A stretch of DNA of 34,002 bases, taken from positions 1 to 34,002 of the IMG/VR virus record IMGVR_UViG_2623620506_000009; one strand, given 5' to 3'. Numbering within the stretch: the first letter of the stretch is position 1; each line of letters begins with the position of its first letter. The notes under the pieces are model-generated. The model did not search any database. It was not told the origin of the DNA and saw nothing but the letters and a program-made list of their open reading frames with translations. Positions 7,790 through 34,002 of the stretch are shown here, piece after piece. Source of the DNA: a virus. Its lineage: Duplodnaviria; Heunggongvirae; Uroviricota; Caudoviricetes. A program made the position numbers and the translations under genes.

Positions 7790-8850
7790 GTGGCCACCGC
7801 CTTTGTTTTCTTCGTCTTCGCTTTCATTTCCGGCATGTCCAGTGATTCAGGCGGAACCAGCGCCAGAACCGTCATCCGCCCCTGTGCGCCATCCGTCCAG
7901 GTCACCCCGGATATCAGCCAGGTGGTTTTCAGGTTCTGAATGCTGTCGTCAATATCGACAAGGCGGTTGGTCTGCCACAGCGGGCCGCTGTCGCCCTGTT
8001 CGCGCCAGCCTGCCACCGTGATTTCTGTCGTGCGGGATTCCCCCAGCATCCGGGCTTTGTACCATTCCCCGCGAATGCTGGCACCGCCCACGGTCAGGCT
8101 GTCTTCATTGACCAGAATGCGCGGGCGGTAACGGTTAATTTCCGGGTCTTCGGTGATGTACTGGCGACCACCCACCATCGGGGCAGGCTGGCTGTCCCAC
8201 AGTTTGCCACCGGCACTGGTGGTGCCCTTGATGATGTACTGGCTGTTACGCTCCCGCCAGCTGAAGCGCCCACGGGCGGCGAGGATATTTTTTCCCAGCA
8301 CCAGTGACACGCCTGCGCGAACGGAAGAGGCGCGGGTGATAATCAGGTTACCCGCGCCGTCAGATGTCAGCAGAACGCCGCGCTGTTTTGCCAGCCGGTC
8401 GAGCAGTTCAAACCCCGTTTCACCCTGTTCCAGAACGACGGACGCAAACGCCTCTCCGGTCGGGGTTTCCGTGATGACGGTTATCCCGAACGGGCGGCAG
8501 ACATCAGCCGCCACCTGTTCCAGCCGCACGCCTTTCCATTTCCCGGACGAATGCACCACAGAGCAGTCCACCAGGTCACCGGTTTTGTCGCGCCCCATGA
8601 CACGAATCTCCACGTTATCTGCGTCATAGCTGGGAATAAAATCATCGATATACCCCGTCAGCACGGTATCCGCGCCCAGCCTGACTGTGCAGGGTTGCCC
8701 CTCACGAATCACGCGCGGTGCCGCCGCTGACCAGCGGGTTGTCACACTGAGATCAAACTCACCGGCAATCGCCTTCAGGGAACGGCTAATGGACATTTCC
8801 GTCCAGCCTTCCCACAGTTTGCCGTCAACGGTAAGAATCACGGATTCCAT
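7780..8850 (-). CDS. baseplate hub / tail protein P-like (Mu gp44, late control D family)
   Basis: 356 aa; ATGA overlap with N-like gene; size and synteny downstream of tape measure and N. Confidence 0.8.
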   Translation of the reverse strand: MESVILTVDGKLWEGWTEMSISRSLKAIAGEFDLSVTTRWSAAAPRVIREGQPCTVRLGADTVLTGYIDDFIPSYDADNVEIRVMGRDKTGDLVDCSVVHSSGKWKGVRLEQVAADVCRPFGITVITETPTGEAFASVVLEQGETGFELLDRLAKQRGVLLTSDGAGNLIITRASSVRAGVSLVLGKNILAARGRFSWRERNSQYIIKGTTSAGGKLWDSQPAPMVGGRQYITEDPEINRYRPRILVNEDSLTVGGASIRGEWYKARMLGESRTTEITVAGWREQGDSGPLWQTNRLVDIDDSIQNLKTTWLISGVTWTDGAQGRMTVLALVPPESLDMPEMKAKTKKTKAVATWD

Positions 8851-10124
8851 CAGTCGGTAATCTCCACAGGTTGCGTCGGCAGTATGAATGACGGATGGCG
8901 CAGGCGGTTACGCTGCACGATTTCATCCCGTCGGCTGGTGTCACCATGCTCGCGCCATGCCAGCAATGCGGCAGATGTGGTTGTGGTCAGCGTCACCTGC
9001 CGGGTTTCCGGCAGACGGGCGGCACGCTCGCGGGCATCCGTAATCACGGCCTGCCGTAAATCGCGCAGCGTTCGCCACAATGCCCGCTGGTTATTTTCCA
9101 CCGCCGCCACCGCCTGCTCATGCAGTTCAGCCGCCAGCGTGTCACCGGCAGATAATGCCGCATCACTGGTATCGAACGTCATCGAGGCCACGGCATTTGC
9201 CTGTCCCAGCAGGGTTTCCAGCACAACCACCTGGCGGAAGTCGTCAATGTTCTTCTGCAGGCTGTCAGATACCGGCTGATAATCCGGTGACAGCCCGATA
9301 GCAAAGCCTATTTCACCGTCTGCCACGCTGCCGGGCTTCACGGTGATATCTTCCGGCAGTGCGCCGGTGGCAACCTGTCGGGCACGTTCTCCGGCCCACT
9401 GGTTGCGTAATGTCGTGTAAACCGCCAGTGCTTCGGGTGGTTCCGTCACCAGATCAACCACGCCGTCGATGAACGAGGACAGCTCACTGACCAGACGCCC
9501 CGGTGTGGCAATGATGGTTCCGGCCATCTCCTTAAAATGGTTCAGCCTATCCATCCACTGATTCAGTGCTGACGGTAGCGTGGGCAGGTTAGCCACAAGA
9601 TTTTCCATATCGGACAGAAAGCTGTCGGCCATCTCACCCAGCCCGTCAAGTGCGCCGAACCAGTCGCCATCGTCAATGGCCGCTTTTACCGCATCAATAC
9701 CCGTCAGCACTTCCTGCTGCGTGTTATCCGCCGCAGACGGGAACAGGCGCTCGCCTGCCTCAAACACTTCAAAGGTGACATACGCAATGCCGTCTTCCTC
9801 CGTGCTGAGGCGATGGGTGACCTTGCCAACCTGTACGGTCTGTATCCCGAACCACGGGTGGATAAGCTCGCCGGGGCCGGGGGTATTGAGCGCGTCTAAA
9901 AGGGCGTTTAAATCATCCTGGAAGTTTTTACCCAGCAGCTTTGCGTTAATCTGCTGTTGTCCCGGAACGGCCCCGTTATCATCCGTCCAGGCGGTTTCGC
10001 GCCGGGGATACGCACGGGGAATGGCACGACGGCCACCGGTGCCTTCCGTATCCACCAGAAAGAAGGGGACGCCGCGAAACGAGGCATCGCGCAGCCCGTC
10101 CCATTTGCCGTTGCTCGTTGTCAT
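8850..10124 (-). CDS. DNA circularization protein N-like (Mu gp43)
   Basis: 424 aa immediately after the tape measure gene; start overlaps tape measure stop. Confidence 0.8.
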   Translation of the reverse strand: MTTSNGKWDGLRDASFRGVPFFLVDTEGTGGRRAIPRAYPRRETAWTDDNGAVPGQQQINAKLLGKNFQDDLNALLDALNTPGPGELIHPWFGIQTVQVGKVTHRLSTEEDGIAYVTFEVFEAGERLFPSAADNTQQEVLTGIDAVKAAIDDGDWFGALDGLGEMADSFLSDMENLVANLPTLPSALNQWMDRLNHFKEMAGTIIATPGRLVSELSSFIDGVVDLVTEPPEALAVYTTLRNQWAGERARQVATGALPEDITVKPGSVADGEIGFAIGLSPDYQPVSDSLQKNIDDFRQVVVLETLLGQANAVASMTFDTSDAALSAGDTLAAELHEQAVAAVENNQRALWRTLRDLRQAVITDARERAARLPETRQVTLTTTTSAALLAWREHGDTSRRDEIVQRNRLRHPSFILPTQPVEITD

Positions 10125-11971
10125 TACCCTTGCTCCACGCTGGTGACGCCAGCCTGCGCACTGAGTCTGACGCCGGGTTGATCCACTCTGACACTTTTCA
10201 CGCGGGCGTCACCTTCCACCACCACACGGATTTCCCCCTGCAACTGCTGCGGAAGGAAAGGATAATTCTGTGTGGGTTGCATACCTGCCCACGGTCGCGG
10301 GTCGGCAATGTTCTTATCACCAAGCGAATTGAACCAGTCTGTTACCTTACGCCAGACGGATTCCAGTGCTTTCTGGTTGTCCTGGCTTTGTTGTGCGAAC
10401 TCGCGCTCCCACGGGCTGGCGCTGGCATCACCGGCAACGGATTTAGTGAGACTGTGAACCTCACCCGGCAGGGCGTATTGCGTGGTCAGAAAATCGTAAA
10501 ATTCCAGAGCACCGGCAATGATGCCAGCGCCTTTACCTGCCTTTCCTCCACGGTTACCCGGACCCCGAGGATTGCGGGGATTGCGCGATGAATCCGGTGT
10601 ATCCGGCAGACCGCCGGTATTACCATTCATCCCGCCACTGCCCATATTGACCACATACACCGGCATCACGCCGGAGCCGAAAACATCCGTAATGCCACCG
10701 GGTATCCCTTTGCCTTTCCCTTTGGGATTCATGATGTCGTGGATGGTTTTACCGAACTGATACGTCTTTCTGATGGCGATAATGCCACCCAGCGCAATCG
10801 CCATATATTTACCGACCTGCAACCAGTTCTGGACTGTGTTCTGGTCCACGCTGTTGAGCGCATCCGCCAGGTCCTGAACGGGCTTTGCCAGTTGTCCTTC
10901 AGCAAAACGTTGCCATTCGTTATTCAGTGACTGCATTGCGGCATTAAAGCCTTCAGCATTGGTCTGTGCGGCTTTTTGTGTGGAGCCCACTTCAGCTGTG
11001 CCGTAAATCATTTGCTCCAGCAATTGCCGGTTTTCTGGGCTGAGTAACGCTTTCATCCCCTGCATCCCTGTCTGATCAAACACATCCTGAAGTTTCAGCG
11101 GGTCGTATTTAGCCCGTTTGAGGATTTCCATCATCAGTTCATAGGGCTTTTTAATGTCTTTTGTGCCTTTGACAAAAACGTCAACCCCGTTTTTTTTCAG
11201 GAACTCAATGTTCTTTTTGTCCGACAGGGAGGCATACATGGCCTGAATACTGGTTACCGTCTCATCAATGCTGCCTTTGTTTTTGGCGAACACCTGAGCA
11301 AATGCCCCCATCTGGGCAATGGCTTCCGGCCCCTGATCCTGAATGATGGAAAACAGTTTTGGGGCCGCGCGTGCAACATCAGCAACGCTGACAGAACCCA
11401 CCGCGAACTGTGCATACAACCTGTCCATAGTGTTGCTGACCGCATCAGCGCCCCGGACGCCTTTTTCCCAGAACTGCGCCATCAGCCCGGCGGCCACCTG
11501 TCCGTCAACACCAAATGCCTGCATAAACAGCCCCATGTTGCGCAGGTTATCCACCACATACTGATAATCACCGGTTTTTCCCAGCAGGGCATCAACCCCT
11601 TCACCAAGGGCTGAAGCATCAATGCGGATATCCTTCTGATTGGAAACGTCCCGGATCGCGTTCTTCAGCGTATTGACCTGATCTGCGTTTAATTTGGCAT
11701 TGGTTCCCATACGCCGCATTTGTGCATCAAAGTCGGCGACCTGCTTGATGGTGAGGCTACTGCCAAGCCCGGCAATCATCGCCGTGTAGCGGTTGTCCAG
11801 CGTGTCAAGGCCGCGTCCTGCGGCCTCCGTTGTGGCTTTGACAAGGCGCATGGCCTTCTGATGGTTCCGGGCGAACTGCGACATATTTGCGCCGTATTGC
11901 CGGGCTTTGGCGGTCAGGTTCCCGGCAAGGTTGATCATGATTTCCGTGCTGAGACGGTTACCTGTTGCCAT
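10124..11971 (-). CDS. tail tape measure protein (Mu gp42-like)
   Basis: 615 aa; ATG at 11971; helical N-terminal two thirds, Gly-rich C-terminal region (GSGGMNGNTGG...GPGNRGGKAGKGAG); follows the chaperone gene. Confidence 0.85.
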   Translation of the reverse strand: MATGNRLSTEIMINLAGNLTAKARQYGANMSQFARNHQKAMRLVKATTEAAGRGLDTLDNRYTAMIAGLGSSLTIKQVADFDAQMRRMGTNAKLNADQVNTLKNAIRDVSNQKDIRIDASALGEGVDALLGKTGDYQYVVDNLRNMGLFMQAFGVDGQVAAGLMAQFWEKGVRGADAVSNTMDRLYAQFAVGSVSVADVARAAPKLFSIIQDQGPEAIAQMGAFAQVFAKNKGSIDETVTSIQAMYASLSDKKNIEFLKKNGVDVFVKGTKDIKKPYELMMEILKRAKYDPLKLQDVFDQTGMQGMKALLSPENRQLLEQMIYGTAEVGSTQKAAQTNAEGFNAAMQSLNNEWQRFAEGQLAKPVQDLADALNSVDQNTVQNWLQVGKYMAIALGGIIAIRKTYQFGKTIHDIMNPKGKGKGIPGGITDVFGSGVMPVYVVNMGSGGMNGNTGGLPDTPDSSRNPRNPRGPGNRGGKAGKGAGIIAGALEFYDFLTTQYALPGEVHSLTKSVAGDASASPWEREFAQQSQDNQKALESVWRKVTDWFNSLGDKNIADPRPWAGMQPTQNYPFLPQQLQGEIRVVVEGDARVKSVRVDQPGVRLSAQAGVTSVEQG

Positions 11972-12167
11972 GCTGTTTCTCCAGTTGCTTTATCAGGCGG
12001 AACAGCTGCCGCAGGGGCAGCTGTTCCAGGTACTGAATGCTGAATCTCTGGGACAGGTTAACCAGCAGGTTCATCAGTGCCGCCGCCAGCGGCATCAGTT
12101 CGCCCCCGCGTTGCCACCTCCTCAAGCATGTCATCCAGCGCAGCAGCTTTGGTGCTGATAAGTTCAA
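11958..12167 (-). other. ORF overlapping the 3' end of the tail chaperone gene in the +1 frame and bridging to the tape measure start (candidate frameshift extension)
   Basis: 69-codon ORF with no ATG or SD of its own; overlaps the chaperone gene by about 110 nt and ends 13 nt past the tape measure ATG; G-run CGGGGGC lies in the overlap. Confidence 0.3.
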
Positions 12168-12453
12168 GGTCTGCCGGGTGGAGCATTCGCAGCTGTTTCA
12201 TGTCCAGCGGGCCGGGAATGTTGCCGATGGCCGCAACCTGACGGCGCATCATCTCCAGCCCCATCAGCACCTCAGAACAGTAGGCCACCGCCTTTCCGTT
12301 CCCGCCCATGACGACACGTTCTGCGGCCAGTTGCGCATCAATCACATCACTGGCGGTCAGTTCGCGCAGCTTCACGGTTTTATGCAGGGTTTCATCTGCC
12401 GTGCCTTTGCCGGTCAGAAGCCCGTGTTTCAGTTCAAATGTCATTTCAGCCAT
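12058..12453 (-). CDS. tail assembly chaperone (Mu gp41-like)
   Basis: 131 aa between tube and tape measure genes; AAGGTG SD; canonical position of the G/GT-type chaperone. Confidence 0.65.
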   Translation of the reverse strand: MAEMTFELKHGLLTGKGTADETLHKTVKLRELTASDVIDAQLAAERVVMGGNGKAVAYCSEVLMGLEMMRRQVAAIGNIPGPLDMKQLRMLHPADLELISTKAAALDDMLEEVATRGRTDAAGGGTDEPAG

Positions 12454-12454
12454 G

Positions 12455-12811
12455 TCACACCTTCACGCATTTTTCACCGATAAAGTTCGCACTGATGGTG
12501 CCGGAATCCTCGTCCAGCTCCGCCGGGTTATCCGTGGCTGAACCTGTCATCATGTAGTTCAGGCCGTTGTCGCCGTAGAACATCACCGTGACGTCTTCCC
12601 AGCTGCTGATTTCAATCACGTCCATATCCGCTGCCGCCGCAATGGTCACTTTGATGGACGGCGAGGCCATCTTGCTGGAGATGCCCCAGACCTTGCCGCC
12701 GCCCATATGCTGGGTGCGGCTGAAGCCGCCCGGGTTCAGCGTGGATTTCCCCTCGGTTTTAATTTCGCGGCCATTCACGCGAATGGTCGCCATGCCAAGA
12801 ATTTTTGCCAT
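12455..12811 (-). CDS. tail tube protein (Mu M-like)
   Basis: 118 aa directly downstream of sheath gene; AAGGGG SD; synteny. Confidence 0.8.
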   Translation of the reverse strand: MAKILGMATIRVNGREIKTEGKSTLNPGGFSRTQHMGGGKVWGISSKMASPSIKVTIAAAADMDVIEISSWEDVTVMFYGDNGLNYMMTGSATDNPAELDEDSGTISANFIGEKCVKV

Positions 12812-12820
12812 GTGGTCCCC

Positions 12821-14296
12821 TTAAAGCTTGAACTGAATCAGGCCTGCCAGCACACGCAGCTGGTTCACCAGATTCGGGTGGCAGATAAAGTTCAGGCGGT
12901 TTTTATCACTGCTGTCGCGTGTCACCTGAAGCGTGTCCTTGTAATCGCTGAAGTTCTCCACAAGGCCCGCAGGGATAAGTTCGGTCTGGCAGATATCCAG
13001 CAGCTCTGCGGTGCACAGCTTCGGCGTCATCACCGGCTGACCGGCATCCAGTGAGTCCAGCACGTCATCATCCGCCAGCTTGTGGCGCGGATAACGGTTC
13101 GTGAAACGGTTTTTGATGATATAACGGATACGGCCCAGCGTGGCGGGTGACTGCACATCCAGGTACGACACATCCGCATCACCGTACTGGTTAACCCGGT
13201 ACATGGTGATTTCTCGCTCGATACAGACGTTATCCCCGGCGTCCACCATGTGTGTGGCAATGCCGTCATGCAGCAGCAGGTTACGTTCCGGCATATCCCA
13301 GCGAACATTACGCGCAGGCGGCAGAATGCCGGTCAGGACCAGCGTCTGAAGCGGACGCGCCGGGTCAATGGCAAGGTGATACGCTGCCGTTGCGCCGTAT
13401 GACGCGGCCCACATCCACGCAGGGTGCGGTGACAGGTTGGTGCCGATACAGCTAATCAGCCAGTCATTGCGGGTTTCACCAAACGTGCCTGTCTCGCCGT
13501 GTGTGCCACGAAACGCCGTCCACAACTGCGCCTCCATCATTTTGAGCGGCCCCCAGCGGTTCAGCAGTTCATCACGCAGGGTGTTCAGGCTTTTCGTGTC
13601 GGTGAACGGGGCGATGATATCGGTAAACCACTCCGGGCCGATGGCCGCAACGGCATCCGCCATTTCCGGTGTCCCGGTGCCGCCGGTAAACGCGGTGGCG
13701 GTCACCTTCACACCTGCCGGGAAGGCTTCACCGGTGTAGTAGTTCAGGCGAACGTCGGCACCGTTGCCGGTGACGCCGTGCCAGTTCACGGTCAGCTCCA
13801 CGGTATCCGTGGCATCATCCTTCACCGCAGCGGCCACCTGCGTGGCAGGCTTTTTCGTCACCGCATCAGCAATAGCTTTTGCAATATTTTCCTTCGTAGC
13901 CCCGGCGCTCACGCTCACCTGAACGGACACACCGTTAATCAGCAGTGCCACCGTTCCGGCTTCAGTCGCTGTCCCCAGCACGGTCAGCGTGGCTTTTGCG
14001 GCAGCGCCAACAGGTGCGGCAACCGGCATTGCCCAGGTTTCCGTGTACGTGTTGGCACGACGCAGCATTTTGAGCATTTCAGCCAGCATCGACCCTTTGC
14101 CATAAAGCTGGTCTGCCTGGCTGTCACTGGTGATGCGGGTCAGTGACAGGGCGTCTGCGCTGCCGGACGATACCGCATGGCCCATGACCAGAATTTTTCG
14201 GCTTTGCGCGGATGCACCATCCAGCGCCTGTGAATTGTCGATATCGATCCAGACAAGCGGGACGCGGATATCATCAGGAATTGAACCCAGCGACAT
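12821..14296 (-). CDS. contractile tail sheath protein (Mu L-like)
   Basis: 491 aa; size and position upstream of the tube gene. Confidence 0.9.
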   Translation of the reverse strand: MSLGSIPDDIRVPLVWIDIDNSQALDGASAQSRKILVMGHAVSSGSADALSLTRITSDSQADQLYGKGSMLAEMLKMLRRANTYTETWAMPVAAPVGAAAKATLTVLGTATEAGTVALLINGVSVQVSVSAGATKENIAKAIADAVTKKPATQVAAAVKDDATDTVELTVNWHGVTGNGADVRLNYYTGEAFPAGVKVTATAFTGGTGTPEMADAVAAIGPEWFTDIIAPFTDTKSLNTLRDELLNRWGPLKMMEAQLWTAFRGTHGETGTFGETRNDWLISCIGTNLSPHPAWMWAASYGATAAYHLAIDPARPLQTLVLTGILPPARNVRWDMPERNLLLHDGIATHMVDAGDNVCIEREITMYRVNQYGDADVSYLDVQSPATLGRIRYIIKNRFTNRYPRHKLADDDVLDSLDAGQPVMTPKLCTAELLDICQTELIPAGLVENFSDYKDTLQVTRDSSDKNRLNFICHPNLVNQLRVLAGLIQFKL

Positions 14297-30094: not shown

Positions 30095-31033
30095 TTACGT
30101 GCGCAGCAGGGTTGAAATATCAACGTCCAGGTCTAATTCACGGAAAGCCTGACGCAGATAATCTTCATTAACACGTTCACCTTTGCCGTGGGCAGTCATG
30201 GCCGCAAGGCGCAGCGAGTGGTTCAGGATGCGAAGCGCACCTGGTTTTTGTGCAATCTGCTGTAATAATTCCCGCTCGTTTTCGCCGGTAATTTGCCAGG
30301 CATCCGCAATGGCTTTTACATCGTCAATTTTGGTTTTATTAATTGCCGTCCGCTTTGCAATACGGGAAAACAGGCGGGCAAATTCAACCGTTCTGTTACC
30401 ACCGGTCATGTTTGAATAAACACGGTGATTCCCCATCAGAACAAGGCCAATACGGGCAGACTCCTGTAACAGGCGGAGTTCTTCCAGAACCTCAGCGCCA
30501 AGATGATCAGCTTCGTCGATAATGACCAGCCCCTGCGTACCTTCAAGGCGGCGTCGCAAAGCGCGGGAGAGCGGCCCTTTGCGGCGCGGTGCGTCATTCA
30601 TTCCCAGCTCATAAGCCAGTTCAGTGAGACATTCCAGAACACTGGCGCAGGATGGTGTAATGGTGATCATCCAGACATTGTTATTGGTGCGACGAAATTC
30701 GCGGGCCGCTTCAGTTTTCCCCACACCTGGATTACCGCAGATAACAGAAATACTTTCAGTCAGGCTGGCAAAACGCATACTCGTCCAGATTTGACGTGCT
30801 GTTCTGGTTTCCACAAAACGCGGGGGTTCTGGCAGCTCTGCGGCGCGGTGATAGTTCTCCAGCCAGCGTTCCAGTGTCTGCGCGACACGGTCATTGTCGC
30901 CGTTGTACTTGTTATTCACGAATGCGCTTAACGTTCCTGCGGCCACGCCGGACTCGCGGGCAATTTGTGCATAAGTTGTTTTTTCACTTTCTACAAGCGT
31001 GCGCAGTCCTGTGCGAATATCGGAAATATTCAT
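30095..31033 (-). CDS. B: transposition ATPase / target DNA activator B (MuB)
   Basis: 312 aa; [15 protein letters not shown]..., Walker A GNPGVGKT, Walker [11 protein letters not shown]; near-identical to recalled Mu B; GAGG SD. Confidence 0.93.
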
Positions 31034-31071
31034 CTGAATAACCTCGTAATTAAATTTTGTTTAAACGTTAA

Positions 31072-33060
31072 TTAAATGGCTTTTTTACGTCTGTTCTGTT
31101 CCAGAATATCCAGCGAATGATTCAGATATTCATCACGATCAGTTTCATATTCATCATCGGGTTCCTGGTATTTCACCTGCACCGTGTTACCGGAAGGCCG
31201 GAAAATACCAACAACCCTTGATTCTGGCGCTGCTGGTTCGGCTATCTGCGGCAGCAGTTCAGCAACTTCCAGCGCGTCCATTTGCTTCTGCGCCTTAATG
31301 GCTGCTTTAGTTGCAGATTTCAGTTGTTTCTGGCGGCGGCGATATTCACGACCTGCCGCAGCATCATTAAATGCAACAGGGGCCAGACATTCCGCTTCAC
31401 AGATAAACCGACCGTCCAGGGTGTAGCAATAAACCGTGCTGTGTAGCTGCTGTGGATCAAACCTGACCACAACTTTTTTCACTCCGGCATTCATTAATGC
31501 CATGTTGTAATAAACGTTTTTCGCGCCTTTAAGGGAGCCGCCAACTTTAAGCGTAAACTCGCCTTTGCGTGAAACGTTCACCGCCTCAGCAGGCAGTAAC
31601 AGCATCCGTTTTTGTTCTTCGGTTGGCTTACGCACAATCGTTCTGGCGTATTCACGCTCGAAAACATCATCAAACGAGAGTTTGCCCCCGCACATTTCTG
31701 TTTCACGTCCTGTTCTGGCATTGAACATCGCCACACCTTCGGCAAGGGTTTTCAGAAACAGCTCTGCATCAACAGCACGGTCGCCATAGTTATCAGGTTT
31801 TGCCTGCGGATTTGGCCCCGTATATGCACCAGCCAGTGCCGGATGCTTATCAACGTATTCCTCAAGCCCACCAACACCGAAAGCACGTTCAACAGGTTTT
31901 GCCTGGCCCCAGCCTTTACCGGCAACAACGCTTGTCCAGTGCATTTTCGCGCCCATCAGTAAAAACAGTCCCTTTGGATCGTCCTCTTTCACCTTAAAGC
32001 GGTAGCGATTGGGCGCGCCCCCCGTCAGCCATTTATTCGCTGCACCACGGGTGTTATCAATGGTGATGTGAAAATCCTCCGGGATGCCGTAGCGTGTCAC
32101 CACATCCATGAACGAGAGGCGAATTGAATCGATGTTCTCGCTTACATCGCAGCGCCAGCCCAGAATTTTTCGGGTTTTCACATCCTGCCAGAACCATGTT
32201 TTCGGGCGGATCACATCGCCGTTAAACCAGCGTACAAAGACGTTATGCAGATAACCGTCGCCGTTGATCCACTGCATGGCGTCCAGGTGTTCCACAGTTC
32301 GCTGCTGTGCCGGTATCAGATGCATCAGTGCATGTTCACCTTCACGGCAGGCAACAACCATTGCCTCATCCAGTTGCTGAATCCGGCGAAAGGCCGTGGC
32401 ACGGGAGGGAATACTCCAGCCATGCTCGCGGGCTGCCAGCTCCAGACGCTCATAACATTTGCGGAAGGCGGGTTTTTCTGGTCGCAGATAATCTGCAATC
32501 AGAAACTGCCAGGCATCCTCGTCAAATTCACTTTTGTGAACATTGCGACGAGATGCACCACGTCCATCAACAAGTGCTGCCGCCCAGTCAGGCTTCGCAA
32601 ACTTCTGTACCTGGTAATACTTGTCCCGCAAAGTGGATGCGCTGACCTGGTAATGCCCTGCAACGGTCGCAAAAGCCGTTTTCGTTGAAATCCCCTGGTT
32701 CAGCATTTCGTCTGCAGCCTGAACCGCAGGCAACCATTTTTCAGCAAGTCTGCGCTGGGAATTGCTGGCGTTATCCCATTTGCTCCACAGTGCCTCACGA
32801 TCATAATCATGGGCTTCCAGCGTGGGGCGGGCGATTTCAAAACGGCCCTGGCTTGTTTCAATACCTCCTTGTTGCAATAAAATTTCAGCACGTAATGCAA
32901 CAGGAAATGATTTGATATTGAATTCAAATGATACACCTTTAGTACCTGTAACTTGCCTAAACACCCAGCCTTCTCTTTGTGCCTTACGTGTAATGTTAGT
33001 TGCTTGCTTTGGCAAACCAGCAAAACCAAGCAATTCTTTCGCTGTATACCACTCTTTCAT
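31072..33060 (-). CDS. A: DDE transposase A (MuA), D108-type N-terminus
   Basis: 662 aa; from about residue 70 ([26 protein letters not shown]...) matches recalled Mu A through the catalytic core and C-terminus (...[19 protein letters not shown]); N-terminal 70 aa differ from Mu as in D108. Confidence 0.95.
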
Positions 33061-33477: not shown

Positions 33478-34002
33478 ATGTCTTTTGAAATCAAAGAATG
33501 GTTTAATGCGAAAGAGCTGGAGGGGATGCCTGGTGTGCCAAAGTTGGCGACTAACATTACCAGAAAGGCTGTGGCAGAAAATTGGGTAAAACGTCAACGT
33601 CATGGTGGAAAAGGTGTGGCTTATGAATATCACATCAACAGCTTACCAGAAGAAACCCAAAGGGCTATTAAGGGAGCATCATTTTCTTATACCCCTCCAG
33701 TACATGTACCAAGCCATCATACAGTTGATGAGCGGCTAGTTTATGCAATGAGTTTCTTAACGCCTGATGAGCAAGCTGCGGCTATTGAGATCATTCGTGT
33801 GGCAGGAATTAAAGGTCTTATGCCGACAATTGTTAGCAAAGATAAAGCGTTAGAAGCATTGGGGGTTACTGTGGAACAACAAAGAACCCTACAGACACTT
33901 CAAGCATTACCGCCGGAAAAAGCGAGAGAGATTTTATCTCAGTATGAAAATAAGGAACACAACCTCCCGGCAAGAGAAGACGATGTAAAAAAAGCTGTAT
34001 AA
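33478..34002 (+). CDS. c: repressor c (Repc-like), D108-type
   Basis: 174 aa; N-terminal [30 protein letters not shown] resembles the transposase N-terminal DNA-binding domain ([30 protein letters not shown]) as in Mu; only plus-strand gene; stop at window end. Confidence 0.8.
   Translation: MSFEIKEWFNAKELEGMPGVPKLATNITRKAVAENWVKRQRHGGKGVAYEYHINSLPEETQRAIKGASFSYTPPVHVPSHHTVDERLVYAMSFLTPDEQAAAIEIIRVAGIKGLMPTIVSKDKALEALGVTVEQQRTLQTLQALPPEKAREILSQYENKEHNLPAREDDVKKAV

What the first reader, a model, noticed from the sequence alone, without database searches (positions are those of the whole stretch)
11958..12167. +1-frame ORF bridging tail chaperone and tape-measure genes: candidate programmed frameshift
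A 69-codon ORF with no start or SD of its own overlaps the last 110 nt of the chaperone gene and runs 13 nt past the tape-measure ATG. It is in the +1 (equivalently -2) frame relative to the chaperone, not the usual -1. A G-run (ACG CGG GGG CGA) lies inside the overlap. Tail chaperone genes in many long-tailed phages make a frameshifted extension product, so this geometry fits a non-canonical shift.
Basis: partly seen in the sequence, partly recalled or inferred. Interest (0 to 1): 0.5.

Follow-up and report, generated by a model that had tools for sequence, protein, structure and literature searches.

The report
Mu-type −2 frameshift in tail chaperone
This is the same rare "slip back two bases" translational frameshift that phage Mu uses to make a longer version of its tail-assembly chaperone, found here in an E. 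coli Mu-like prophage where databases list the extension as a separate 45-residue hypothetical protein; it is real, but already a known kind.

Summary
On the minus strand, an open frame (stop-to-stop 12197..11958; listed ORF 12167..11958) lies in the +1/−2 frame of the gp41-like tail chaperone gene (12453..12058). It ends 13 nt past the A of the tape-measure ATG (11971). The G-run is the octamer GG GGG CGA (12107..12100).

That octamer is the published −2 shift site of phage Mu, and it sits in the same codon phase and gene position here. It is invariant and in phase in all 125 related loci examined, including Escherichia, Klebsiella, Vibrio, Shewanella, Alteromonadaceae and Pasteurella phages. 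Other invariant residues of the chaperone use 2–5 synonymous codons. The extension frame is under purifying selection (ω 0.23–0.43, against 0.9–5.5 in the other frames) and has no conserved start codon.

Stops in the two frames bracket the shift to about 20 nt around the octamer. The −1 frame never reaches the tape-measure gene.

Best reading: programmed −2 ribosomal frameshifting gives a 165-aa chaperone–extension fusion alongside the 131-aa chaperone. No fusion protein for this lineage exists in the protein collection searched. A possibly new detail is an upstream SD-like GGAG, 9–10 nt from the site, that looks selected at synonymous positions and is absent from Mu. Interest is low: a new member of a known kind.

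The parts
12058..12453 (-). Tail assembly chaperone gene (Mu gp41 homologue), zero frame, 131 aa
   Evidence: Pfam Gp41_Mu PF23746 E 3e-37 and Phage_TAC_7 PF10109 E 7e-8. phrog_508 'tail assembly chaperone' E 4e-40. Lies between the tube gene (12455..12811) and the tape-measure gene. The exact protein is in NCBI as E. coli 'phage tail assembly protein'.
12100..12107 (-). Slippery octamer GG GGG CGA. Zero-frame codons are CGG 12108-12106, GGG 12105-12103 and CGA 12102-12100.
   Evidence: Single occurrence in the window. Identical string and phase in phage Mu, where it is the documented −2 site (PMC3458567; Mu record). Invariant and in phase in 45 + 80 related loci. Its codons are invariant where other conserved residues use 2–5 synonymous codons.
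11958..12107 (-). Extension coding segment in the −2 frame (GGG GGC GAA CTG … TAA): 49 codons plus stop. The fusion is modelled as join(12453..12103, 12104..11958) for P-site-only slippage, or join(12453..12100, 12101..11958) for tandem slippage. Both give 165 aa.
   Evidence: Translation. phrog_38797 E 5e-34. ω 0.23–0.43 in this frame against 0.9–5.5 in the control frames. Length of 48–53 aa (up to 55 in one locus) and an 'LPLR' motif are conserved across lineages.
11958..12197 (-). Full stop-to-stop open stretch of the −2 frame (80 codons). The part upstream of the octamer is probably not translated.
   Evidence: In relatives the upstream open part shrinks to 2–6 codons (L013, L038, Mu), so only the part from the octamer onward is conserved.
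12114..12121 (-). SD-like GGAGGUGG, with a 9-nt spacer between GGAGG and the octamer. Candidate upstream frameshift stimulator (inferred).
   Evidence: Duplex with the anti-SD is −13.8 kcal/mol, one of only 2 such 8-mers among 33,994 on this strand. A 'G GAG' core sits at the same position in most non-Mu lineages. Glu is GAG in 34/34 distinct sequences against a 39% background, and the preceding wobble is G in 41/44 against 34%. Absent in Mu, SfMu and L044.
12078..12094 (-). Local hairpin UGCCGCU-GGC-GGCGGCA, 5 nt downstream of CGA. Weak candidate for a downstream stimulator.
   Evidence: −10.9 kcal/mol, and a hairpin is predicted at a similar place in the enterobacterial clade. But z = −1.75 at best, no compensatory changes, and nothing comparable in Mu or the Vibrio phages.
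12093..12095 (-). In-frame ATG of the extension frame, equivalent to the start RefSeq/PGAP uses for a free-standing 45-aa 'hypothetical protein' in relatives
   Evidence: A start at this place is missing in 8 of 78 distinct relatives. Mu, SfMu, Shewanella MuM16-2 and Vibrio 1.028.O have no start codon in the frame at all up to codon 12.
10124..11971 (-). Tape measure gene (615 aa). Its SD GGAG (11982..11979) and ATG (11971) lie inside the last codons of the extension frame.
   Evidence: phrog_973 'tail length tape measure protein' E 8e-139. Sequence. In 78 of 80 clade loci the extension ends 11–57 nt inside the tape-measure gene.

Best explanation
A small fraction of ribosomes translating the gp41-like tail chaperone mRNA slip two nucleotides backwards on GG GGG CGA (12107..12100, minus strand). 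At that moment tRNA-Gly is on GGG in the P site, and the rare codon CGA is in, or awaited at, the A site. tRNA-Gly can re-pair perfectly with the GGG two bases upstream. Translation then continues in the −2 frame for 48–49 codons to TAA at 11960..11958, inside the start of the tape-measure gene.

The result is two proteins with the same N-terminal 117–118 residues. One is the abundant 131-aa chaperone. The other is a minor 165-aa fusion with a conserved C-terminal extension.

By analogy with lambda gpG/gpGT, both would bind the tape-measure protein, and the extension would recruit the tube protein, so that the tail assembles to the length set by the tape measure. Neither protein would end up in the virion.

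Shown here: the geometry, the identity of the site with Mu's, nucleotide-level selection on the octamer, and protein-level selection on the extension frame.
Inferred: that the shift occurs in this prophage, its direction (−2, not +1), its efficiency, and the function of the fusion.
For: - Family and synteny: the chaperone is Pfam Gp41_Mu, in the order sheath–tube–chaperone–tape measure–DNA circularisation protein.
- Frame: +1/−2.
- Site identity: Mu has CGG GGG CGA in the same phase near the end of gp41. Its record annotates Mu_56 as a 'verified −2 translational frameshift'. PMC3458567 describes tandem −2 slippage on GG GGG CGA. Efficiency is about 2.2% in vivo (PMC3498833) and 14% in a cell-free system (bioRxiv 2025.10.02.679949).
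- Conservation: the −2 frame bridges to the tape-measure gene in 45/45 loci, the −1 frame in 0/45. The octamer is invariant and in phase in these and in 80/80 further loci.
- Bracketing: L013 has a stop in the extension frame 6 nt upstream of the G-run. Shewanella and Vibrio martha phages end the zero frame at CGA CCT TAA.
- Codon control: R-G-R uses only CGG/AGG, GGG and CGA in 11 divergent lineages. The other 11 invariant residues use 2–5 codons each. From the window's own codon usage, that choice has probability 0.0025 per lineage.
- Coding constraint: ω is 0.23–0.43 in the extension frame and 0.9–5.5 in the control frames. In the overlap, the chaperone frame's third positions are the least variable.
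- No conserved start codon in the extension frame.
- Zero-frame tails after CGA vary from 1 to 13 residues and are not conserved.
Against: - No expression data exist for this prophage.
- The octamer alone is not rarer than chance in the window, and open frames of this length are common here.
- In this clade an ATG or GTG lies 7 nt downstream of the G-run in most members, so independent initiation of a 45-aa peptide is physically possible.
- No significant or covarying downstream RNA structure was found.
- The primary Mu paper (Xu, Hendrix and Duda 2004) could not be read. The experimental basis is taken from the GenBank note and from citing papers.
Confidence: 0.85

Rival explanations
1. +1 ribosomal frameshift. 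tRNA-Gly on GGG slips one base forward onto GGC while the ribosome waits for the rare CGA codon. The fusion would be one residue shorter (…ATRG-ELMPL…).
For: The target frame is the same as for −2. CGA is a rare codon here, 10 of 154 Arg codons. +1 shifts at hungry codons are known, and other phages use +1 for this gene pair (PMC5009743; PMC3498833).
Against: A +1 slip needs only GGG C. Yet the wobble G of the preceding Arg codon is also invariant in 125 loci, and the only change seen (CGG→AGG) keeps GG. Mu's identical site is reported as −2. The SD-like element is 9–10 nt upstream, the spacing reported for backward shifts in dnaX rather than the ~3 nt of RF2 (own knowledge).
Confidence: 0.06
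2. No frameshift. The extension is a separate small gene, translated from ATG 12095 with the G-run as its Shine-Dalgarno sequence. This is how RefSeq annotates it (45-aa hypothetical protein).
For: PGAP calls WP_001127483.1 at this place in E. coli relatives. The window's own 45-aa product (from ATG 12095) is itself in the collection, on more than 1000 contigs. The G-run is 7 nt upstream of the ATG. 58 of 78 distinct relatives have an ATG within codons 0–8.
Against: The start is not conserved. 8 of 78 relatives have none nearby, and Mu, SfMu, Shewanella and Vibrio 1.028.O phages have no start codon at all in the frame up to codon 12. Yet the octamer, its phase and the extension are conserved in those phages. 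An SD would not need the CGA, nor a fixed phase relative to the chaperone frame. Mu's product is a fusion.
Confidence: 0.05
3. Transcriptional slippage of RNA polymerase on the G5 run (one base lost or two added) produces a shifted mRNA.
For: It would reach the same frame. Transcriptional slippage is used by some bacterial and phage genes (PMC5009743).
Against: Known slippage-prone runs are longer homopolymers, mostly A or T (own knowledge). It would not explain the invariant CGA or the fixed codon phase. Mu's site is treated as ribosomal in the literature read.
Confidence: 0.02
4. Chance open frame with no function.
For: 62 open stretches of ≥80 codons on this strand, and the motif count is at chance level.
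Against: Conservation of frame, site, phase, length and amino-acid sequence across divergent phages, and ω well below 1 only in this frame.
Confidence: 0.01

Closest known systems
Phage Mu gp41 / FS-gp41 (Mu_41 / Mu_56): −2 programmed ribosomal frameshift on GG GGG CGA (Xu, Hendrix and Duda 2004, PMID 15469818, as cited in the Mu record and in PMC3458567, PMC3498833 and PMC5009743)
   Same: Homologous chaperone (Pfam Gp41_Mu). The same octamer in the same codon phase near the 3' end. The same target frame. An extension of about 50 residues with an LPL motif, ending next to the tape-measure start. The same gene order.
   Different: The chaperone is only about 43–49% identical to Mu's, and the extension only about 21%. 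Here the extension overlaps the tape-measure ATG by 14 nt, whereas Mu has a 14-nt gap. An SD-like GGAGG lies 9 nt upstream and a GC hairpin 5 nt downstream, and Mu has neither. The zero-frame tail is 13 residues against Mu's 6. No fusion is annotated for this lineage.
Phage lambda gpG / gpGT −1 frameshift
   Same: Same logic and probably the same function. There are two products sharing an N-terminus from the gene just upstream of the tape-measure gene. The minor one carries an extension, and the ratio matters for tail assembly (PMC5009743).
   Different: Lambda shifts −1 on a classical heptamer. Here the −1 frame closes after two codons. No sequence similarity was detected (one search shows no lambda G or GT family hit). 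Lambda has a non-contractile tail.
Phage P2 E / E+E' tail chaperone frameshift (−1)
   Same: Contractile-tailed phage, with the chaperone in the same position. Pfam PF10109 'Phage_TAC_7: proteins E, or 41 or 14' matches the window protein at E 7e-8.
   Different: P2 uses −1 (per the Mu record note and own knowledge). The slippery sequence is different.
E. coli dnaX −1 frameshift signal (upstream SD-like element about 10 nt from the site plus a downstream hairpin)
   Same: The arrangement of possible stimulators in the window: GGAGG 9 nt upstream and a hairpin 5 nt downstream of the site. This is a resemblance in how it may work, not membership.
   Different: Different slippery sequence, a different size of shift and a different gene. 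Neither element has been tested here. The hairpin is not statistically supported.
GGGGGAA 'five-two' motif in actinobacteriophage tail chaperone joins (PRFect paper, PMC10885494)
   Same: A G5 run followed by a two-base repeat, used as a shift motif in tail chaperone genes.
   Different: Different last three bases (GAA against CGA), different hosts, unrelated chaperone families. I did not examine those phages.

Membership tests
Mu-type −2 programmed frameshift of the tail assembly chaperone (gp41 / FS-gp41) | Upstream gene is a Mu gp41-family chaperone lying between the tail tube and tape-measure genes | tested here: met
   Pfam Gp41_Mu E 3e-37. Neighbours hit Tail_tube, Phage_sheath_1, tape measure (phrog_973) and DNA_circ_N.
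Mu-type −2 programmed frameshift of the tail assembly chaperone (gp41 / FS-gp41) | [quoted passage not shown] | tested here: met
   12107..12100 minus strand. Same phase as in Mu. Site as given in PMC3458567.
Mu-type −2 programmed frameshift of the tail assembly chaperone (gp41 / FS-gp41) | Overlapping ORF in the −2/+1 frame, open from the site to about the tape-measure start, with no conserved initiation codon | tested here: met
Mu-type −2 programmed frameshift of the tail assembly chaperone (gp41 / FS-gp41) | Extension frame evolves as protein-coding sequence and is homologous to Mu's extension | tested here: inconclusive
   Coding constraint is clear (ω 0.23–0.43). Similarity to Mu's extension is weak: 21% identity, a shared length of about 50 aa and an LPL motif. 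The window peptide and Mu's were not shown to be in one family by a statistical test.
Mu-type −2 programmed frameshift of the tail assembly chaperone (gp41 / FS-gp41) | A fusion protein is actually made, by a −2 (not +1) shift, at a few per cent efficiency | not testable with these tools
   Needs a protein or reporter experiment. Only indirect support exists: invariance of the upstream GG.
Lambda G/GT-type −1 frameshift | X XXY YYZ heptamer, and a −1 frame ORF that extends to the tape-measure gene | tested here: not met
   The −1 frame closes after GCG AAC TGA. It does not bridge in any of the 45 loci.
RF2 (prfB)-type +1 frameshift | SD-like element about 3 nt upstream of the shift codon, and a stop or very slow codon in the A site | tested here: not met
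   The SD-like GGAGG is 9 nt upstream of the octamer (14 nt before the GGG codon), and there is no in-frame stop at the site. The spacing rule is from own knowledge.

The most novel reading that the evidence does not exclude
In the non-Mu branches of this phage family, including this E. coli prophage, the −2 site may not be a bare slippery octamer as in Mu. It may be a stimulated signal: an upstream SD-like GGAG(G) held at a fixed 9–10-nt distance by selection on synonymous positions, perhaps helped by a downstream hairpin. If so, efficiency would be tuned differently from Mu's. In addition, the extension ends inside the tape-measure ribosome-binding region, so frameshifted ribosomes might also influence tape-measure initiation.
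Probability: 0.3. Interest if true: 0.4.

Novelty: new member of a known kind. Interest (0 to 1): 0.2.

Why it matters
Natural −2 frameshifting is rare. Mu was described as the only documented case in 2012 (PMC3458567, PMC3498833). Arteriviruses and Trichomonas vaginalis virus 1 were added later (PMC5009743).

This work shows that the Mu octamer is invariant, at the nucleotide level, across a wide set of Mu-like myophages and prophages. That gives a simple, testable rule for annotation: join the gp41-family chaperone to the downstream −2 ORF at xGG GGG CGA. It would replace thousands of orphan 45-aa 'hypothetical proteins' in Escherichia, Shigella and Salmonella genomes.

The lineages with and without the upstream GGAG would also make a natural comparison for studying what stimulates a −2 shift.

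For the biology of this prophage the finding is ordinary. It is the expected chaperone pair for tail assembly.

Tried and rejected
- The primary paper (PMID 15469818) is not held. I relied on the GenBank note and on citing papers.
- Three literature calls failed on term syntax.
- A scan of genome contigs with the chaperone found no confirmed relative. Organism assignment therefore rests on the E. coli genome search and the exact-protein lookup.
- Rfam gave only a chance-level hit (Erse, 12 bits against a 138-bit cutoff), so there is no described RNA family here.
- Downstream stimulatory structure: the 80-nt fold has z = −0.58 and the 45-nt fold z = −1.75. There were no compensatory pairs among 10 distinct clade sequences, and nothing comparable in Mu, Vibrio or Shewanella phages. 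I kept it only as a weak candidate.
- The −1 frameshift reading is rejected because that frame closes after two codons.
- No tRNA genes were found in the window.
- Structure prediction of the fusion was not attempted. The fusion is not a contiguous window translation, and the homologues came from loci the tool does not accept.
Full report
**1. What is in the sequence**

The window is an almost complete Mu-like prophage with its genes on the minus strand. Around the finding the gene order is:
- tail sheath, 12821..14296
- tail tube, 12455..12811
- a 131-aa protein, 12058..12453
- a 615-aa protein, 10124..11971
- a DNA-circularisation (Mu N-like) protein, 8850..10124

The 131-aa protein matches Pfam Gp41_Mu (E 3e-37), Phage_TAC_7 (E 7e-8) and PHROG 508 'tail assembly chaperone'. 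The 615-aa protein matches tape-measure PHROGs.

Its frame relative to the chaperone is +1, equivalently −2. From stop to stop the frame is open for 80 codons (12197..11958). The −1 frame closes two codons after the G-run (GCG AAC TGA). The string ACG CGG GGG CGA is at 12111..12100.

The extension frame ends at TAA 11960..11958. That is inside the tape-measure gene, whose SD (GGAG, 11982..11979) and ATG (11971) lie within the last codons of the extension.

**2. Is it more than chance?**

Not on its own. The strand has 62 open stretches of at least 80 codons. GGGGGCGA occurs once against 1.55 expected. The case rests on comparison with relatives.

**3. Comparison with phage Mu**

Mu gp41 ends …CAA GAA CGG GGG CGA GTG…TGA. 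This is the same nine bases in the same codon phase, and a 52-codon frame in the same +1/−2 register runs on to just before the Mu tape-measure gene.

The Mu GenBank record annotates this as Mu_56, 'verified −2 translational frameshift in PMID 15469818'. The literature read gives these details:
- PMC3458567 states that tandem −2 slippage occurs on GG GGG CGA, and that the A-site tRNA-Arg (anticodon ICG) re-pairs better in the −2 than in the −1 frame.
- PMC3498833 gives an efficiency of about 2.2%.
- A 2025 preprint measured 14% in a cell-free system.
- PMC5009743 notes that −2 adds one residue compared with +1.

**4. Conservation across relatives**

I collected three sets of loci:
- 35 viral contigs with chaperones 66–98% identical to the window's
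- nine phage records
- 80 further viral contigs found with a profile of divergent chaperones, partly overlapping the first set

Frame. In all 45 loci of the first two sets plus the window, the +1/−2 frame is open from inside the chaperone gene to about the tape-measure start. The −1 frame never is.

Site. GGGGGCGA is present, in phase, in every one of them and in 80/80 of the third set. The preceding base is C except for two cases of A, which keep the codon Arg and keep the GG.

Bracketing. Stops in the two frames confine the shift. L013 has TAG in the extension frame 6 nt before the G-run. In the Shewanella and Vibrio martha phages the chaperone frame stops at CGA CCT TAA. The change of frame therefore has to happen within about 20 nt centred on the octamer.

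**5. Nucleotide-level selection on the site**

I aligned 11 divergent chaperones (41–75% identical to the window's). Fourteen columns hold one residue in all of them. The eleven outside the site use 2–5 synonymous codons each. The three at the site use CGG (10) or AGG (1), GGG (11) and CGA (11).

From the codon usage of the window's own structural genes, that choice has probability 0.0025 per lineage.

The wobble G of the first Arg codon is not needed for a +1 slip but is needed for a backward slip. I take its invariance as indirect support for −2.

**6. Protein-level selection on the extension**

Among four lineages 65–74% identical in DNA, Nei–Gojobori ω over 46 codons is 0.23–0.43 in the extension frame. 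The same alignment read in the other two frames gives 0.9–5.5.

Between the site and the chaperone stop there are 7, 2 and 8 variable columns at extension-frame codon positions 1, 2 and 3. The chaperone frame's third position is therefore the least variable, and the extension frame dominates the overlap.

The chaperone-frame tails after CGA range from 1 to 13 residues and are not alignable. The extensions are 48–53 residues (one of 55) and share an LPL(R/S) motif about 30 residues from the junction. The window's extension matches PHROG 38797 (E 5e-34).

**7. The annotation rival**

In E. coli relatives (49 of 5426 complete genomes, about 96–97% identical) RefSeq annotates the extension as a separate 45-aa hypothetical protein starting at the ATG equivalent to 12095. 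No slippage is annotated. The G-run is 7 nt upstream of that ATG and could serve as an SD.

That start is not conserved, however. Of 78 distinct sequences, 58 have an ATG within codons 0–8, 12 have only GTG or TTG, and 8 have nothing. Mu, SfMu, Shewanella MuM16-2 and Vibrio 1.028.O have no start codon anywhere in the frame up to codon 12. An SD function also would not explain the fixed phase or the invariant CGA.

Independent initiation therefore cannot be the family's mode of expression. I cannot exclude it as a side product in this clade.

An exact-sequence lookup gave three results:
- The window's chaperone is an E. coli protein.
- The 45-aa peptide is on more than 1000 contigs.
- None of three fusion models for the window is in the collection.

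Mu's fusion is there twice: as …RG-G-EW… (GenBank UIW09302.1) and as …RG-R-EW… (Swiss-Prot P0DJY4). The +1 model is absent.

**8. Possible stimulators**

Downstream: a hairpin UGCCGCU-GGC-GGCGGCA (12094..12078, −10.9 kcal/mol) starts 5 nt after CGA, and something similar is predicted throughout the enterobacterial clade. It is not supported statistically. The best z is −1.75, there are no compensatory changes, and Mu, Vibrio and Shewanella phages have no counterpart. The region also codes in two frames.

Upstream: GGAGGUGG (12121..12114) pairs with the anti-SD at −13.8 kcal/mol. Only 2 of 33,994 octamers on the strand reach this value. Nine nucleotides separate GGAGG from the octamer.

A 'G GAG' core occupies the same position in most lineages other than Mu, SfMu and L044. 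The Glu codon there is GAG in 34 of 34 distinct sequences (background 39%). The preceding wobble base is G in 41 of 44 (background 34%). The binomial p-values (about 1e-10) are inflated by relatedness, so I treat this as a lead.

The geometry resembles the dnaX signal, where an SD-like element about 10 nt upstream favours backward slippage (own knowledge). I found no paper describing this element for Mu-like phages, but I could not read the primary paper.

**9. Mechanism and function**

My reading is a programmed −2 ribosomal frameshift on GG GGG CGA. It yields a 165-aa fusion next to the 131-aa chaperone, with the roles known for lambda gpG and gpGT (PMC5009743): both bind the tape-measure protein and the extension recruits the tube subunit.

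- Direction, efficiency and function are inferred.
- The site, frame and selective constraints are shown.
- Whether the junction reads RG-G-E or RG-R-E cannot be decided here.

**10. Verdict**

The feature is a new, unannotated member of a known and experimentally established kind. Interest is low. The small exceptions are the annotation rule and the possibly selected upstream SD-like element.

Noticed in passing
window 12114-12121 (−); same position in L002-L125 except Mu-type loci (L001, L041, L044): An SD-like GGAG(G) lies 9–10 nt upstream of the slippery octamer and looks selected at synonymous positions. Glu is GAG in 34/34 distinct sequences, and the preceding wobble is G in 41/44. It is absent from Mu itself. 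It may be a dnaX-like stimulator of the −2 shift.
   Followed up: partly
L001 (phage Mu AF083977) 1835-1843; proteins P0001, P0002: The Mu frameshift product is modelled with two different junctions. GenBank UIW09302.1 has …QERG-G-EWL… (P-site slippage only). Swiss-Prot P0DJY4 has …QERG-R-EWL… (tandem slippage).
   Followed up: partly
window 11961-12095 (−); L045 3306-3443: RefSeq/PGAP annotates the extension as a free-standing 45-aa 'hypothetical protein' (WP_001127483.1 in the E. coli relative). The window's own 45-aa product (from ATG 12095) is on more than 1000 contigs from Escherichia, Shigella and Salmonella. No fusion product for this lineage is in the protein collection.
   Followed up: yes
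window 12094-12102 (−): A −1 slip on the same G-run would end after two codons (GCG AAC TGA) and give a truncated chaperone. The stop falls in the same place in L022 and L023, but not in L037 or Mu.
   Followed up: partly
L002-L021, L034, L036 (tape measure genes); window 10124-11971: Among prophages whose chaperones are 94–98% identical, the tape-measure protein varies from 580 to 624 aa. This suggests indels in the ruler, and so possibly differences in tail length.
   Followed up: no
H42, NZ_CP012497.1 115187-116383: One of the 70 E. coli matches lies on a 136-kb record classed as a plasmid rather than on a chromosome.
   Followed up: no
window 30095-33060 (−) and 33478-34002 (+): ORFs of 662 and 312 aa lie at the far end of the window, with a divergent ORF running off the end. 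By size and position they fit Mu A and B transposition proteins and a repressor. They were not tested with family searches.
   Followed up: no
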